Origin: a virus
Taxonomy: Duplodnaviria; Heunggongvirae; Uroviricota; Caudoviricetes
IMG/VR virus record: IMGVR_UViG_2541047167_000007
DNA length: 4,257 nucleotides
Reading direction: 5' to 3' (one strand)
This document shows positions 632 to 4,257 of the stretch, in pieces; within the stretch, counting starts at the first letter, position 1, and the number at the start of each line of letters is the position of its first letter. Position numbers and translations under genes: made by a program. The notes beneath the pieces were generated by a model. The model searched no databases. It saw only the letters and a list, made by a program, of their open reading frames with translations, and was not told the origin of the DNA.

Positions 632-1348
632 ATGGAAACCGTATCTGACGCACTGAAAGCACTGAAAAGAGCCTCTTCACATGTGGTGGCAGCTCGCCTT
701 GGAATTAGTCGTGAAGAGGCTGTCAACGAACTGTGGAAACTGAAACGCCGTGGAGAAGCGGATAACAAGGGGGCGATATGGTGGCTGACTCAGGCTGGTG
801 AAAGTGAACCGGTGTCACCGGTACCGAAAGTGACGGCGCAAATGCTGACAGAGGCGATTGAACAACATGGCCCACAAACGGCGGATGAACTGGCATTGAT
901 GTTCGGAATTACCTCCCGCCGGGCGAATTCATCGCTGGCAATGGCAATCAGCAAAGGGTGTCTGATTCGCGTGAATCAGGATGGTAAATTTCGTTACTGC
1001 ATACCGGGCGTTGATTTACCGGCAGAGCCGAAAGCAGCATCCGTAGCTGAAACGGAGGGTAAAGCCCTTCCTCAGCCAGCTGGTGTTGCGTTACCAGTCC
1101 AGGAAACGGCTGCACAGGAAGAAATTAAAACAGAAGCGGTGGAGGACATTGTGAAGTTGCAGCAATCGTTCACTGAAGCGAAAGCAGATGACCTGATTCT
1201 ACCATCGCTGCATGTGGCTAACCGCGAGCTGCGCCGGGCGAAAAGTAATGTTCAGAAGTGGGAGCGAGTCTGTGCTGCGCTACGGGAACTGAACAAACAC
1301 AGGGATATTCTCCGGGATATTACCGCCACCAGAGAGCAGCAGCGGTGA
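632..1348 (+). CDS. Hypothetical prophage protein with two winged-helix-like repeats, an Ala/Glu/Pro-rich linker and a charged C-terminal helix (possibly DUF1627 family)
   Basis: ATG 632 follows SD GGAGGA (619-624) with a 7-nt spacer; the track start at 614 is TTG and lacks an SD. Stop is TGA 1346-1348. Two similar segments ([39 protein letters not shown] and [43 protein letters not shown]) look like wHTH units. Confidence 0.6.
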
Positions 1349-1662
1349 GTGGCTGGAAGAAGTGGCGCTGGGCTGAAATCCTGATACTCCGGCAGTGTGC
1401 GGGAACGATGAGAGTCGAAAGCATCGGTTATCTGATTGGCCGTAGTGAGTCAGCCGTCAGGACGAAAGCGCGGGAACTGGGTATCAGCATGATGTTACGG
1501 GGTGATTATCACCAGTCAGCCAAATGTTCACAGCGTGATATTGAGCTGGCGTGGCAACTGCATCAGCGTGGTGTACCCCGACGGGAAATTGCCGAAAAGT
1601 TTGGGATGAAGTTGGGCGCAGTGAATAACTACGTTTATTTCGACAGGAGGGTTCAGGAGTGA
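1345..1662 (+). CDS. Small putative helix-turn-helix DNA-binding protein (start uncertain: GTG 1345 or ATG 1408)
   Basis: GTG 1345 overlaps the upstream stop (GTGA), suggesting translational coupling; the alternative ATG 1408 has only a weak GGGA SD. Stop is TGA 1660-1662. HTH-like segments are [15 protein letters not shown] and [19 protein letters not shown]. The track's longer 1258 start would overlap the upstream gene by 90 nt. Confidence 0.5.
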
Positions 1663-1961
1663 GGGTGAGGGTTTATATCGCCGGTCCGATGACGGGATAT
1701 GAAAATTTTAACCGCGAGGCATTTCACAAAACGGAAGAGGTGCTGAAACGGGAAGGGCATACCGTTTTAAACCCGGCAGTACTTCCGGACGGGCTGACTC
1801 AGCCACACTACATGGATATTTGCATGGCAATGCTCCGTTGCGTGGATGCGGTTTACATGCTGAAAGGCTGGCAGCAGTCGGCAGGTGCAGGGGCTGAGCT
1901 GGCACTGGAGGAGAAACCGGGCCATGCGGTGATTTTTCAGGAGGTGGGCAGTGAATATTGA
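1659..1961 (+). CDS. DUF4406 family protein (nucleoside 2-deoxyribosyltransferase-like fold)
   Basis: GTG 1659 overlaps the upstream TGA (GTGA), with SD AGGAGG at 1645-1650; GTG 1665 is an alternative start. The N-terminal RVYIAGPMTG motif and the 100-aa length are typical of DUF4406 as I recall the family. Stop is TGA 1959-1961. Confidence 0.7.
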   Translation: MRVRVYIAGPMTGYENFNREAFHKTEEVLKREGHTVLNPAVLPDGLTQPHYMDICMAMLRCVDAVYMLKGWQQSAGAGAELALEEKPGHAVIFQEVGSEY

Positions 1962-2268
1962 CCCGGCGATAACGATTGATATGGCCCTGAACGCCGGCCT
2001 GGCACTTCTTGGTTATTTCTACATTATGTTCTGCAGCGGACGATGGCTGTCACTGTTGTTCATGAAAAAATGGAATAAACGCCGTAAGCAGGAGCAACGC
2101 CAGAAGGCAATGGATGCATTTTTCGAAGCCTTCGGAATTGACGGCATGGAACCAGGGGATCCAGCTCGCGCAATCAGCAGAGGGGGTGTAGTAATCCTTG
2201 TATATCGGAGTGAAGAGAAAAATGACGATCACAAAACAACGTGTAGAAGAAATCATATCCCGCATTGA
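1951..2268 (+). CDS. Small single-pass membrane protein, hypothetical
   Basis: GTG 1951 follows SD AGGAGG (1939-1944) with a 6-nt spacer and overlaps the upstream gene by 11 nt. A hydrophobic segment (LNAGLALLGYFYIMFCSGRWLSLLF) is followed by a basic cluster (KKWNKRRKQEQRQK). The last ~15 codons overlap the next gene out of frame, so the 3' end is uncertain. Confidence 0.45.
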   Translation: MNIDPAITIDMALNAGLALLGYFYIMFCSGRWLSLLFMKKWNKRRKQEQRQKAMDAFFEAFGIDGMEPGDPARAISRGGVVILVYRSEEKNDDHKTTCRRNHIPH

Positions 2269-2539
2269 AATGTATGGACATGGTGCAGGGTATATCGCAG
2301 ACGAGGTTAATGATCTGGCTATACTGGCGCTGAATTTATCAAATATCGCGAACCTGAAGCGATACGAGCTTGATATGGGAGGTTGCGACTCGTGCGGTCA
2401 GGATTGTGGCGCTGATATGACTGAAGATCCTGATGGTGATTATGTCCTGTTTGATGACGTGGTTAAGTTGTTTGAATTTGATACAACCACTCAAAAGTTA
2501 GAAATCCCGGCAAAGGAGGCAGCCAGTGGGCAAGATTGA
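2222..2539 (+). CDS. Hypothetical acidic protein with a CxxCxxxC cysteine cluster
   Basis: ATG 2222 is preferred over the track's TTG 2198; GGAG/GAAGAG lie upstream. Stop is TGA 2537-2539. It contains CDSCGQDCG followed by an Asp-rich stretch. No family recognised. Confidence 0.5.
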   Translation: MTITKQRVEEIISRIEMYGHGAGYIADEVNDLAILALNLSNIANLKRYELDMGGCDSCGQDCGADMTEDPDGDYVLFDDVVKLFEFDTTTQKLEIPAKEAASGQD

Positions 2540-2963
2540 CTATCAGGCACTGCGTGAGGCAGCACAAAACTATCAATCGACGCTGGCGTGGTATCAGGCT
2601 ACCCCGGACAGCCCAAATGCTGAACGGGATTGTGATGCGGCTCTTGCTGCGTTTAAGCGTCACATCCGTCATCGGGAAGCGGATATTATCGCTGATTTGC
2701 TGGATGGACTGGAAGAAGCAAAATCACAACTCAACGAGCAGCGTGAGTATTACGAAGGCGTTATCTCTGATGGGAGCAAGCGTATTGCTGAACTGGAAGC
2801 GCGGGAAGTTCAATTACCGACTCGCTACGACCTTCGATATGGACACCCGATAAATGCAGATGAGCGACATGTCATGATACCTAAAGAAAATGGCAGTTGG
2901 CTTTACCTGATTGACCTAGAACACGCATTACGCGTCGCTGGCATTCGCATCAAAGGAGAGTGA
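2526..2963 (+). CDS. Ead/Ea22-like family phage protein
   Basis: GTG 2526 follows SD AAGGAGG (2513-2519) with a 6-nt spacer. The N-terminal IDYQALREAA, the central LNEQREYYEGVISDGSKRIAELE and the C-terminal AGIRIKGE match my recollection of lambda Ea22-type proteins. Not searched. Confidence 0.6.
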   Translation: MGKIDYQALREAAQNYQSTLAWYQATPDSPNAERDCDAALAAFKRHIRHREADIIADLLDGLEEAKSQLNEQREYYEGVISDGSKRIAELEAREVQLPTRYDLRYGHPINADERHVMIPKENGSWLYLIDLEHALRVAGIRIKGE

Positions 2964-2964
2964 G

Positions 2965-3156
2965 ATGAACGGACAAATATCAATTGTTCGACCAGGAGCA
3001 TGTGACGATCGCGAAATACGAATGATTATTCGTCTGGCGATGGGGAAAACAATAACTGCTCTCATTACTCCAGAAAATCTCGCATTAGCATTAACAGGAA
3101 AGTCAGACATGCCAGTAGAGCTAAAGCTGCGAAATGTTGAGATTAAGGTGAAATAG
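2965..3156 (+). CDS. Hypothetical small protein (63 aa)
   Basis: ATG 2965 lies 1 nt after the upstream stop, with SD AGGAGA (2953-2958). Stop is TAG 3154-3156. No family recognised. Confidence 0.5.
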   Translation: MNGQISIVRPGACDDREIRMIIRLAMGKTITALITPENLALALTGKSDMPVELKLRNVEIKVK

Positions 3157-3158
3157 CT

Positions 3159-3716
3159 ATGACCACTATTACCAAAGATCGACTGCTGACAATCCAGCAT
3201 TGGCGCGAAACATACGGACCGGGTAGCAACGTTGTGCTTCCAGCAGAAGAAGCGGAAGAGCTGGCACGGATTGCGCTGGCATCACTGGCAGCAGTATCGG
3301 ATGAACGAGCAGCCTATGAATTATTTATGGAGAAGCGTTTCGGGGAATCTGTAGATCGCCGCAGAGCAAAAAATGGCGATAGAGAATACATGGCATGGGA
3401 TATGGCGCTTGGCTGGATTATCTGGTGTCACCGCGCCGCCATGCTTCAGGCTGGAAACTTTCGGGAAAATAAGGGTTCGTCAACCAATAATTTTCGGATA
3501 ATCTCGGAAACGTCAACCAACTCTCCGGCAATCCCTGATGAGGTGTTGTCCGCAATCCTGAAGGTCGCCAGGCTTCGTGCAGATTTCGATGCTTCTGAAG
3601 TGGACAGGCGAGGTATCGGTAGTTGTCTGGATGAGGCCGAGCAAGAACTTATCGTTACCATTAACGAATACGCCAGTCAGATCGCAGTAGAAGCGACACA
3701 GGGGGAGAACCAATGA
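3159..3716 (+). CDS. Hypothetical prophage protein (185 aa)
   Basis: ATG 3159 lies 2 nt after the upstream stop, with AAGGTGA upstream. Stop is TGA 3714-3716. Coding-like composition; no family recognised. Confidence 0.6.
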   Translation: MTTITKDRLLTIQHWRETYGPGSNVVLPAEEAEELARIALASLAAVSDERAAYELFMEKRFGESVDRRRAKNGDREYMAWDMALGWIIWCHRAAMLQAGNFRENKGSSTNNFRIISETSTNSPAIPDEVLSAILKVARLRADFDASEVDRRGIGSCLDEAEQELIVTINEYASQIAVEATQGENQ

Positions 3717-3825: not shown

Positions 3826-3930
3826 ATGTCGGATGATATTTCACTGGTAATGGAAGGCGCTCTGGCTGTTATTGCTGTTGTGGGTGTTTACTGCCTGGTT
3901 GTGTTTTTGATGGAGCGCCTGGGGAACTGA
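3826..3930 (+). CDS. Candidate small membrane peptide (34 aa: MSDDISLVMEGALAVIAVVGVYCLVVFLMERLGN)
   Basis: ATG 3826 sits 5 nt after a strong SD AAGGGAGGG (3813-3821). Acidic N-terminus followed by a ~20-residue hydrophobic helix. Stop is TGA 3928-3930. Absent from the ORF track. Confidence 0.4.
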   Translation: MSDDISLVMEGALAVIAVVGVYCLVVFLMERLGN

Positions 3931-3998: not shown

Positions 3999-4016
3999 TG
4001 CTGCGGGTGCTTGAGG

Positions 4017-4052
4017 CTGTCTGCCTCGGGCATGCCACCGTAAGGCAGACAG
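4017..4052 (+). other. Stem-loop in the predicted hok mRNA 5' leader (10-bp stem, 16-nt loop)
   Basis: CTGTCTGCCT (4017-4026) is the exact reverse complement of AGGCAGACAG (4043-4052). No U-tract follows on either strand, so it is not a canonical terminator. Confidence 0.5.
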
Positions 4053-4128
4053 AGAAAAGCCCCAGTTAACATTACGCGTCCTGCAAGACGCTTAACATTA
4101 ATCTGAGGCCCAATCTATATGAAAGACA
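4050..4128 (-). ncRNA. sok: Predicted Sok-like antisense RNA, complementary to the mok-like translation initiation region
   Basis: A minus-strand promoter is predicted just downstream. On the minus strand GCCUCAG (4109-4103) pairs with CUGGGGC (4065-4059), including one G-U wobble, followed by UUUUCUCU (4058-4051), a terminator-like structure. The RNA would cover the mok-like SD (4105-4108) and ATG (4119). Inference by analogy to hok/sok. Confidence 0.4.
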
Positions 4129-4257
4129 AATCTAGGTTAGCCTCTTACGCGCCGAAAGGCAAGGAGAAGCAGGCTATGAAGCAGCAAAAGGCGATGTTAA
4201 TCGCCCTGATCGTCATCTGTTTAACCGTCATAGTGACGGCACTGGTAACGAGGAAAG
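4119..4257 (+). CDS. mok: Mok-like upstream reading frame, in frame with hok (19-codon N-terminal extension: MKDKSRLASYAPKGKEKQA); 3' partial
   Basis: ATG 4119 follows GAGG (4105-4108) with a 10-nt spacer; the frame runs without a stop into the hok ATG at 4176. This mirrors chromosomal mok/hok pairs, which as I recall share frame and stop codon. Confidence 0.35.
   Translation, partial: MKDKSRLASYAPKGKEKQAMKQQKAMLIALIVICLTVIVTALVTRK
4134..4162 (-). promoter_or_regulatory. Candidate promoter for the sok-like antisense RNA
   Basis: Minus strand: -35 TTGCCT (4162-4157), 17-nt spacer, -10 TAACCT (4139-4134), predicting a transcription start near 4126-4128. The -10 is weak (TANNNT only). Confidence 0.3.
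4176..4257 (+). CDS. hok: Hok/Gef-family type I toxin (RelF/HokD-like N-terminus); 3' end outside the window
   Basis: ATG 4176 follows SD AAGGAGA (4161-4167) with an 8-nt spacer. The translation MKQQKAMLIALIVICLTVIVTALVTRK matches the conserved Hok/Gef/RelF N-terminal transmembrane region from memory. The frame is open to the window end. Confidence 0.8.
   Translation, partial: MKQQKAMLIALIVICLTVIVTALVTRK

What the first reader, a model, noticed from the sequence alone, without database searches (positions are those of the whole stretch)
1345..2268. Translationally coupled trio: small HTH protein, DUF4406 (nucleoside 2-deoxyribosyltransferase-like) protein and a small membrane protein
Three consecutive genes are joined by start/stop overlaps (GTGA at 1345-1348 and 1659-1662, and an 11-nt overlap at 1951-1961), implying stoichiometric co-expression. 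The middle gene has a nucleoside 2-deoxyribosyltransferase-like fold, so a phage-encoded nucleoside- or nucleotide-modifying or hydrolysing activity is plausible. Paired with a DNA-binding protein and a membrane protein in an accessory region, this is a reasonable candidate for an uncharacterised host-takeover, anti-defence or exclusion module. The function is entirely speculative.
Basis: inference. Interest (0 to 1): 0.5.

Follow-up and report, generated by a model that had tools for sequence, protein, structure and literature searches.

The report
Three unlinked prophage accessory genes
The three overlapping genes are real, but they are independent, freely reshuffled accessory genes of an E. 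coli O157:H7 lambda-like prophage, not a functional trio; the middle one is a small, uncharacterised enzyme-like protein of the nucleoside deoxyribosyltransferase/DNPH1 fold.

Summary
The gene overlaps at 1345, 1659 and 1951 are real. They are not special to these three genes: the whole run from 632 to 3716 (eight genes) is joined by overlaps of 4 to 47 nt or gaps of 1-2 nt. The window is a Rac/lambda-like prophage of E. coli O157:H7, between replication gene P and hokD.

- **Fold claim holds.** The middle gene matches Pfam DUF4406 (E 2e-33). Its model (pLDDT 86.7) matches deoxyribosyltransferases, DNPH1/Rcl and MilB. Ser74 and Glu80 are near-invariant and align with the DNPH1 phosphate-binding Ser98 and nucleophile Glu104.
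- **Module claim fails.** Of 78 viral loci with a close DUF4406 homologue, 14 hold both partners and 44 hold neither. In loci from about 80 other species' genomes, the HTH gene appears twice and DUF4752 three times, none in the trio order.
- **Partners travel separately.** DUF4752 travels with the next gene (53 of 71 loci), not with DUF4406 (15 of 71). HTH homologues in Salmonella, Pantoea and Citrobacter sit in another phage arm without DUF4406.
- **No match to any PADLOC defence-system model.**

Verdict: ordinary mosaic prophage genes that are already annotated. The only open question is what DUF4406 acts on.

The parts
632..1348 (+). DUF1627 gene. It lies upstream of the trio and shares the first GTGA overlap.
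   Evidence: Pfam DUF1627, E 2.3e-81. Annotated in RefSeq. Precedes the HTH gene in 73 of 73 HTH-anchored loci.
1345..1662 (+). Small tandem helix-turn-helix DNA-binding protein (105 aa).
   Evidence: Sub-threshold Pfam hits: Sigma70_r4_2, HTH_68, HTH_23. PHROG 323 'transcriptional regulator', E 1.8e-24. The AF2 model shows two three-helix bundles, pLDDT 77. The best Foldseek hits are bipartite HTH domains, none significant. The family is confined to Enterobacterales.
1659..1961 (+). DUF4406 protein (100 aa), a minimal member of the nucleoside 2-deoxyribosyltransferase/DNPH1 fold.
1951..2268 (+). DUF4752 protein (105 aa), with a probable N-terminal membrane anchor and a small conserved C-terminal domain. 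The last ~15 residues are a variable tail that reads into the next gene.
   Evidence: Pfam DUF4752, E 7.5e-39, residues 7-90. Hydrophobicity profile and C-terminal variants of 79-119 aa.
2222..2539 (+). 105-aa gene of unknown function. It is the usual travelling partner of DUF4752.
   Evidence: PHROG 3126, E 2.5e-66. Follows DUF4752 in 53 of 71 loci. The same 47-nt overlap is seen in another prophage.

Best explanation
The interval 1345-2268 holds three independent accessory genes. They lie in the rightward early operon of a Rac/lambda-like prophage of E. coli O157:H7, between replication gene P and the hok/sok and nin-like region. They are transcribed together with their neighbours, and the start/stop overlaps are the normal tight packing of that operon.

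The genes behave as separate mosaic cassettes that recombine at gene borders.

1. **HTH gene.** A tandem helix-turn-helix DNA-binding protein.
2. **DUF4406.** A roughly 100-residue minimal member of the deoxyribosyltransferase/DNPH1/MilB fold. It keeps the Tyr, the phosphate-type Ser and the nucleophile Glu. Most likely it cleaves the N-glycosidic bond of a nucleoside 5'-phosphate-type substrate through a covalent Glu-sugar intermediate, probably as an oligomer. This step is inferred, and the substrate is unknown.
3. **DUF4752.** A small protein with one probable N-terminal membrane anchor. It belongs with the downstream gene at 2222-2539, not with DUF4406.

Shown here: the gene structure, the fold, the conserved residues and the lack of linkage. 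Inferred: the enzymatic activity, the membrane topology and co-transcription.
For: **Context**
- The window is 99-100% identical to O157:H7 prophages. The gene order there is racR, ydaS/ydaT-like genes, a DnaT-like gene, P, DUF1627, HTH, DUF4406, DUF4752, and onward to hokD.
- There is no excess of promoter-like or terminator-like sites inside the run.
- Junctions across 632-3716 are -4, -4, -11, -47, -14, +1 and +2 nt.

**Lack of linkage**
- Of 78 DUF4406-anchored viral loci, 14 have both partners, 18 have HTH only, 2 have DUF4752 only and 44 have neither.
- In 80 loci from other species' genomes, HTH is found in 2 and DUF4752 in 3. The 144 flanking ORFs fall into 108 clusters.
- Only 15 of 71 DUF4752 loci have DUF4406 upstream, against 53 of 71 with the 2222 gene downstream (example).
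- HTH homologues of Salmonella, Pantoea and Citrobacter lie in the exo/recT-xis-int arm without DUF4406. E. coli O145 has DUF1627 then HTH with no DUF4406.
- Among 5426 complete E. coli genomes, the intact trio is in 382 (278 of them at 99% identity or more). DUF4406 is in 1115, HTH in 768 and DUF4752 in 570.
- Homology blocks break at gene borders: 1656-1947 alone, 1938-2258 alone, and 1938-3534 in Stx1a phages. GC content steps down at about 1950.

**DUF4406 enzyme-like features**. Residue roles in DNPH1 (Y24, D80, E104; phosphate held by S98 and S128') are taken from PMC10603095.
Against: - Within E. coli phages, the HTH gene is almost always next to DUF4406 (72 of 73 HTH-anchored loci). 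A functional pair cannot be excluded from close relatives alone.
- When HTH is absent, the same slot holds another DNA-binding-type gene, DUF977, which is also overlapped with DUF4406.
- The residue mapping to DNPH1 rests on low-probability hhalign alignments (E 0.16 and 0.064) plus fold matches. It is not a residue-level superposition.
- The general-acid Asp has no clearly conserved counterpart: D53 is Asp in only 67 of 147 representatives.
- The C-terminal extension that gives DNPH1 its second phosphate-binding Ser is missing.
- No expression or biochemical data were available.
Confidence: 0.78

Rival explanations
1. The three genes form one functional module for host takeover, anti-defence or exclusion. 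In this reading the DNA-binding protein, the enzyme and the membrane protein act together and are made in fixed ratios by translational coupling.
For: All three junctions overlap. The trio is intact in 382 complete E. coli genomes and in 14 of 78 viral loci.
Against: - Most trio copies are one clonal lineage (278 of 382 at 99% identity or more).
- Each gene occurs more often without the others.
- No co-occurrence in the trio order in loci from about 80 other species' genomes.
- DUF4752 is linked to a different gene.
- The overlaps extend to all neighbours.
- No PADLOC match.
Confidence: 0.05
2. The HTH gene and DUF4406 form a two-gene unit. The DNA-binding protein would either regulate the enzyme or direct it to DNA, and a DUF977 winged-helix protein would be an interchangeable alternative partner.
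For: - 72 of 73 HTH-anchored E. coli phage loci have DUF4406 immediately downstream.
- In loci without HTH, the same slot holds a DUF977 protein with weak winged-helix and Trp-repressor-like matches, also ending in a 4-nt overlap with DUF4406.
Against: - All HTH loci in that sample are close relatives (79% identity or more), so the linkage may simply be shared descent.
- HTH homologues at 60-68% identity in Salmonella, Pantoea and Citrobacter lie in another phage arm with no DUF4406.
- E. coli O145 has HTH without DUF4406.
- In the loci from other species' genomes, the genes upstream of DUF4406 include DnaB-like helicases, DNA methylases and RusA-like genes, not a recurring DNA-binding partner.
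Confidence: 0.1
3. DUF4406 is not an enzyme. It would be a truncated deoxyribosyltransferase/TIR-like fold used only for nucleotide binding or as an interaction scaffold.
For: - It has only 100 residues and lacks the C-terminal extension that completes the DNPH1 site.
- The Asp counterpart is not conserved.
Against: S74 is identical in 142 of 142 sequences and E80 in 139 of 141. Y6, G76 and A77 are also near-invariant across 147 sequences. This pattern is typical of a retained active site.
Confidence: 0.15

Closest known systems
DNPH1/Rcl (2'-deoxynucleoside 5'-phosphate N-hydrolase) and MilB/BlsM CMP hydrolases
   Different: About 100 residues against 130-160. There is no C-terminal helical extension (S128' in DNPH1) and no clearly conserved general-acid Asp. 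No sequence-level match to any PDB chain. Activity is untested.
Nucleoside 2-deoxyribosyltransferases (Pfam PF05014)
   Same: They are the top Foldseek hits (2a0k, 6evs) and share the conserved nucleophile Glu position. One family member has a weak PF05014 hit.
   Different: NDTs have an Asp six residues before the Glu. DUF4406 has an invariant Ser there, as in the nucleotide-specific DNPH1 (this NDT comparison is from my own knowledge of the L. leichmannii enzyme). DUF4406 is a separate Pfam family.
1t1j, an uncharacterised structural-genomics protein (I recall it as Pfam DUF1937; not checked here)
   Different: 18% identity, and its function is equally unknown.
Gene-border mosaicism of lambdoid phage early regions (for example the lambda nin region and ea genes)
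   Same: Tightly packed small genes with start/stop overlaps that are exchanged as single-gene or few-gene cassettes at gene borders. That this is the general pattern of lambdoid phages is from my own knowledge.
   Different: None found. The window is a typical example.

Membership tests
Pfam DUF4406 (PF14359) | Match to the family HMM above the curated cut-off | tested here: met
   115.1 bits against a cut-off of 22, E 2e-33, residues 4-92 on profile positions 2-90 of 91.
Nucleoside 2-deoxyribosyltransferase / DNPH1 superfamily | Shared alpha/beta fold | tested here: met
Nucleoside 2-deoxyribosyltransferase / DNPH1 superfamily | Catalytic nucleophile Glu after strand 4 (E104 in DNPH1) | tested here: met
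   E80 is present in 139 of 141 sequences. It aligns with E104 in two hhalign runs, both of low probability. The role of E104 is from PMC10603095.
Nucleoside 2-deoxyribosyltransferase / DNPH1 superfamily | General-acid Asp (D80 in DNPH1) | tested here: inconclusive
   D53 is invariant among close relatives but is Asp in only 67 of 147 representatives. D63 is Asp in 105 of 147. hhalign places D80 opposite C55. No residue-level superposition was possible.
DNPH1-type nucleotide N-hydrolases | Phosphate coordination by a Ser six residues before the Glu (S98) and a second Ser from the partner subunit's C-terminal extension (S128') | tested here: inconclusive
   S74 is identical in 142 of 142 sequences and aligns with S98. 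The protein ends at residue 100 and has no counterpart of the 128'-133' extension.
DNPH1-type nucleotide N-hydrolases | N-glycosidase activity on a nucleoside 5'-monophosphate | not testable with these tools
   Needs an enzyme assay.
Known anti-phage defence systems (PADLOC-DB v2) | Match to any defence-system protein model | tested here: not met
   No hit at E up to 0.01 for any of eight proteins across 632-3716.
Conserved three-gene operon (the proposed trio module) | Co-occurrence and conserved order of the three genes across related and distant genomes | tested here: not met
   14 of 78 close viral loci have both partners. No trio-order occurrence in 80 loci from other species' genomes. 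Each gene has other, more frequent neighbours.
Helix-turn-helix DNA-binding proteins (gene 1345-1662) | Recognisable HTH motif or fold | tested here: inconclusive
   Pfam HTH hits are below the curated cut-offs. The model shows two three-helix bundles. Foldseek hits are bipartite HTH domains, but the best E-value is 0.018. NCBI names its relatives 'DNA-binding protein'.

The most novel reading that the evidence does not exclude
DUF4406 on its own, not the trio, could be a minimal phage-borne N-glycosidase. It is a very large, uncharacterised family with 18,485 50%-identity clusters. It might destroy a specific nucleotide, such as a dNMP, NAD+ or a nucleotide immune signal, to favour phage replication or to counter a host defence. 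Its shared fold with TIR NADases and with retron and DNPH1-type N-glycosidases would then be mechanistically meaningful.
Probability: 0.12. Interest if true: 0.55.

Novelty: already known. Interest (0 to 1): 0.15.

Why it matters
As a trio it does not matter. It is a chance neighbourhood in one clonal prophage lineage, and start/stop overlaps in lambdoid early operons should not be read as evidence of partnership.

The useful residue is narrower. DUF4406 is a very common phage and prophage protein (18,485 clusters at 50% identity). It has a retained Ser/Glu active-site signature of the DNPH1 type, and no substrate is known for it. The DUF4752 plus 2222-2539 pair is a better candidate for a real two-gene unit than the trio. 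Both are modest leads for anyone screening prophage accessory genes.

Tried and rejected
- **Sequence searches of PDB chains** with the DUF4406 protein and with a 20-sequence profile found nothing meaningful.
- **hhalign against human DNPH1**, with both a shallow and a deep family alignment, gave the expected register but only E 0.16 and 0.064. The residue mapping therefore stays provisional.
- **Fusion partners.** I scanned 36 longer DUF4406-containing proteins for fusion partners that could hint at function. Pfam saw only DUF4406 plus isolated weak hits.
- **Apparent DUF4406-DUF4752 fusion protein (P0008).** It proved to be a frameshifted assembly.
- **NCBIfam and PADLOC** gave no hits.
- **Literature.** DUF4406 appears only in three annotation lists and DUF4752 in none. 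A preprint on deoxyribosyltransferases in diaminopurine phages concerns PF05014, not this family.
- **Foldseek of the HTH model** gave no significant match, probably because the two domains are flexibly linked.
- **Promoter and terminator scan** found no more sites than in shuffled sequence.
- **Hidden features.** I looked for an RNA or antisense feature inside 1345-2268. Rfam found only sok, at 4005-4181.

Full report
**1. What the window is**

The 4257-base window is 99-100% identical to a prophage in many E. coli O157:H7 chromosomes. In strain SS52 that prophage lies beside potC. The RefSeq gene order there is:

- integrase, excisionase, racR, an HTH gene, a YdaT-family gene, a DnaT-like gene, replication protein P;
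- then DUF1627, a 'hypothetical protein', DUF4406, DUF4752, a hypothetical protein, an Ead/Ea22-like gene, a hypothetical protein, a DUF551 gene and hokD;
- followed by DUF968, RusA and the lysis genes.

In window coordinates the genes are:

| Gene | Coordinates |
|---|---|
| P | 5-598 |
| DUF1627 | 632-1348 |
| HTH gene | 1345-1662 |
| DUF4406 | 1659-1961 |
| DUF4752 | 1951-2268 |
| 105-aa gene | 2222-2539 |
| Ea22-like | 2526-2963 |
| 63-aa gene | 2965-3156 |
| DUF551-like | 3159-3716 |
| small hydrophobic ORF | 3826-3930 |
| sok/hok | from 4005 |

**2. Checking the observation**

They do not set the three genes apart. The first overlap joins the HTH gene to DUF1627. The junctions that follow are -47, -14, +1 and +2 nt.

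Most starts have their own Shine-Dalgarno-like motif inside the preceding gene: AGGAGG before 1659, AGGAGGTG before 1951, AAGGAGG before 2526. The 1345 start has only a weak one. The overlaps therefore allow coupling but do not imply fixed ratios.

In the loci from other species' genomes, about 28 of 74 unrelated upstream neighbours also overlap the DUF4406 start by a few bases (my count). Promoter-like and terminator-like sites are no more frequent than in shuffled sequence. This fits one long transcript.

**3. The three proteins**

*HTH gene.* Pfam HTH hits are all below the curated thresholds (Sigma70_r4_2, HTH_68, HTH_23). There is a strong PHROG hit to a 'transcriptional regulator' family. 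Relatives are named 'DNA-binding protein' by NCBI and are confined to Enterobacterales. The AlphaFold model (pLDDT 77) has two three-helix bundles. Its best, non-significant Foldseek hits are bipartite HTH domains such as the Tc3 transposase and a CRISPR repeat-binding protein. A tandem HTH DNA-binding protein is the reasonable reading.

*DUF4406.*
- The Pfam match is firm (E 2e-33).
- The model is confident (pLDDT 86.7, pTM 0.81; a four-stranded alpha/beta fold).
- Foldseek against the PDB returns almost only nucleoside 2-deoxyribosyltransferases, DNPH1/Rcl and MilB, with TM about 0.7.
- The family is very large: 18,485 clusters at 50% identity with E up to 0.001.
- Across 147 sequences (the window protein plus representatives), the near-invariant positions include Y6, G9, N18, R19, F22, P39, P43, Y51, M58, S74, G76, A77 and E80.

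In DNPH1 the catalytic triad is Y24, D80 and E104, and the phosphate is held by S98 and by S128' from the partner subunit (PMC10603095). Two hhalign runs place Y6, S74, G76 and E80 opposite Y24, S98, G100 and E104. Their probabilities are low.

The Asp has no clear counterpart. D53 is invariant in enterobacterial relatives but is Asp in only 67 of 147 representatives. The protein also stops before the extension that carries S128'.

My reading is a minimal N-glycosidase of the DNPH1 type, probably acting on a phosphorylated nucleoside. The activity and the substrate are inferred, not shown.

*DUF4752.* The Pfam match covers residues 7-90. Residues about 8-37 are hydrophobic (19-residue Kyte-Doolittle peak 1.54) and are followed by a very basic stretch. 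This fits an N-out, C-in anchor but is borderline. The conserved core ends at '...VVILVYRSEEK'. The tail that overlaps the next gene varies, with total lengths of 79-119 aa.

**4. Is it a module?**

- **Anchored on DUF4406.** Of 78 viral loci with homologues at 85% identity or more and enough flank, 14 have both partners, 18 have HTH only, 2 have DUF4752 only and 44 have neither.
- **What replaces the partners.** Where HTH is missing, the upstream gene is a DUF977 protein of about 135 aa, also overlapped by 4 nt. Downstream is often the Ea22-like gene directly.
- **Other species.** In 80 loci from other species' genomes, with DUF4406 at 38-86% identity, HTH is found twice and DUF4752 three times, never in the trio order. 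The 144 flanking ORFs fall into 108 clusters. The largest, five members each, look like RusA and a DNA methylase. DnaB-like and exonuclease-like genes also appear.
- **Anchored on DUF4752.** Only 15 of 71 loci have DUF4406 upstream, but 53 of 71 have the 2222-type gene downstream. In E. coli NCCP15648 the pair sits behind Ant and a TraR/DksA gene with the same 47-nt overlap.
- **Anchored on HTH.** 72 of 73 loci read DUF1627 > HTH > DUF4406, but all are close relatives. Homologues at 60-68% identity in Salmonella, Pantoea and Citrobacter lie in the exo/recT-xis-int arm with no DUF4406. E. coli O145 RM9873 has DUF1627 > HTH followed by other genes.
- **Complete E. coli genomes (5426).** The intact trio is in 382, of which 278 are at 99% identity or more. 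DUF4406 is in 1115, HTH in 768 and DUF4752 in 570.
- **Breakpoints at gene borders.** Some genomes match only 1656-1947 and others only 1938-2258. Stx1a phages match 1938-3534. GC content falls from about 0.54 to about 0.47 at 1950.

**5. Comparison with known systems**

No protein from 632 to 3716 matches a PADLOC defence model or an NCBIfam model. DUF4406 appears in the searchable literature only in annotation lists, and DUF4752 not at all.

The closest characterised relatives of DUF4406 are DNPH1/Rcl, MilB and the deoxyribosyltransferases. It shares the fold and the Ser/Glu signature with them. It differs in size, in lacking the C-terminal extension and in the uncertain Asp.

Tightly packed small genes exchanged at gene borders are the standard picture of lambdoid early regions. 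That statement rests on my own knowledge.

**6. Verdict**

The fold assignment is right. The 'trio module' idea is not supported. What remains is an ordinary, already annotated stretch of mosaic prophage genes.

Two small leads come out of it:
- the unknown substrate of the very common DUF4406 family;
- the DUF4752 plus 2222-2539 pair, which is a better candidate for a real two-gene unit.

The interest score is low.

Noticed in passing
window 1951-2539: DUF4752 and the next 105-aa gene travel together with the same 47-nt overlap. This holds in 53 of 71 DUF4752-anchored viral loci and behind a TraR/DksA gene in E. coli NCCP15648 (L317 3515-4100). The pair looks like a real two-gene cassette.
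   Followed up: partly
L318 3115-3800; L137 3597-4004: In many E. coli prophages the slot between DUF1627 and DUF4406 holds a DUF977 protein of about 135 aa, with weak winged-helix-type matches, instead of the tandem-HTH gene. It also ends in a 4-nt overlap with DUF4406.
   Followed up: partly
window 4005-4257: The sok antisense RNA family RF01794 matches 4005-4181 on the + strand at 117.7 bits. The hokD toxin gene starts at 4176 and runs off the window end.
   Followed up: partly
window 632-1348: The DUF1627 gene directly follows replication gene P, which I recall is where lambda carries ren. It has a weak PHROG hit to 'Ren-like exclusion protein' (E 1.4e-4) and to MarR-type regulators.
   Followed up: no
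protein P0008: P0008 is listed with both DUF4406 and DUF4752 domains, which suggested a natural fusion. Its sequence shows frameshifted stretches from a read assembly, so it is an artefact.
   Followed up: yes
window 3826-3930: A 34-aa hydrophobic ORF (MSDDISLVMEGALAVIAVVGVYCLVVFLMERLGN) is annotated as a hypothetical protein in RefSeq. It has a good Shine-Dalgarno motif and no family match.
   Followed up: no
window 3159-3716: The last large gene has no Pfam hit in this window. The SS52 copy is annotated as DUF551 and is only about 93% identical over part of its length. This is a mosaic difference within otherwise 99% identical prophages.
   Followed up: no
window ~1938-1951: A recombination joint sits at the DUF4406/DUF4752 border. 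Stx1a-converting phages match 1938-3534 at 95.9% identity in a different genome position, and GC content drops at about 1950.
   Followed up: partly
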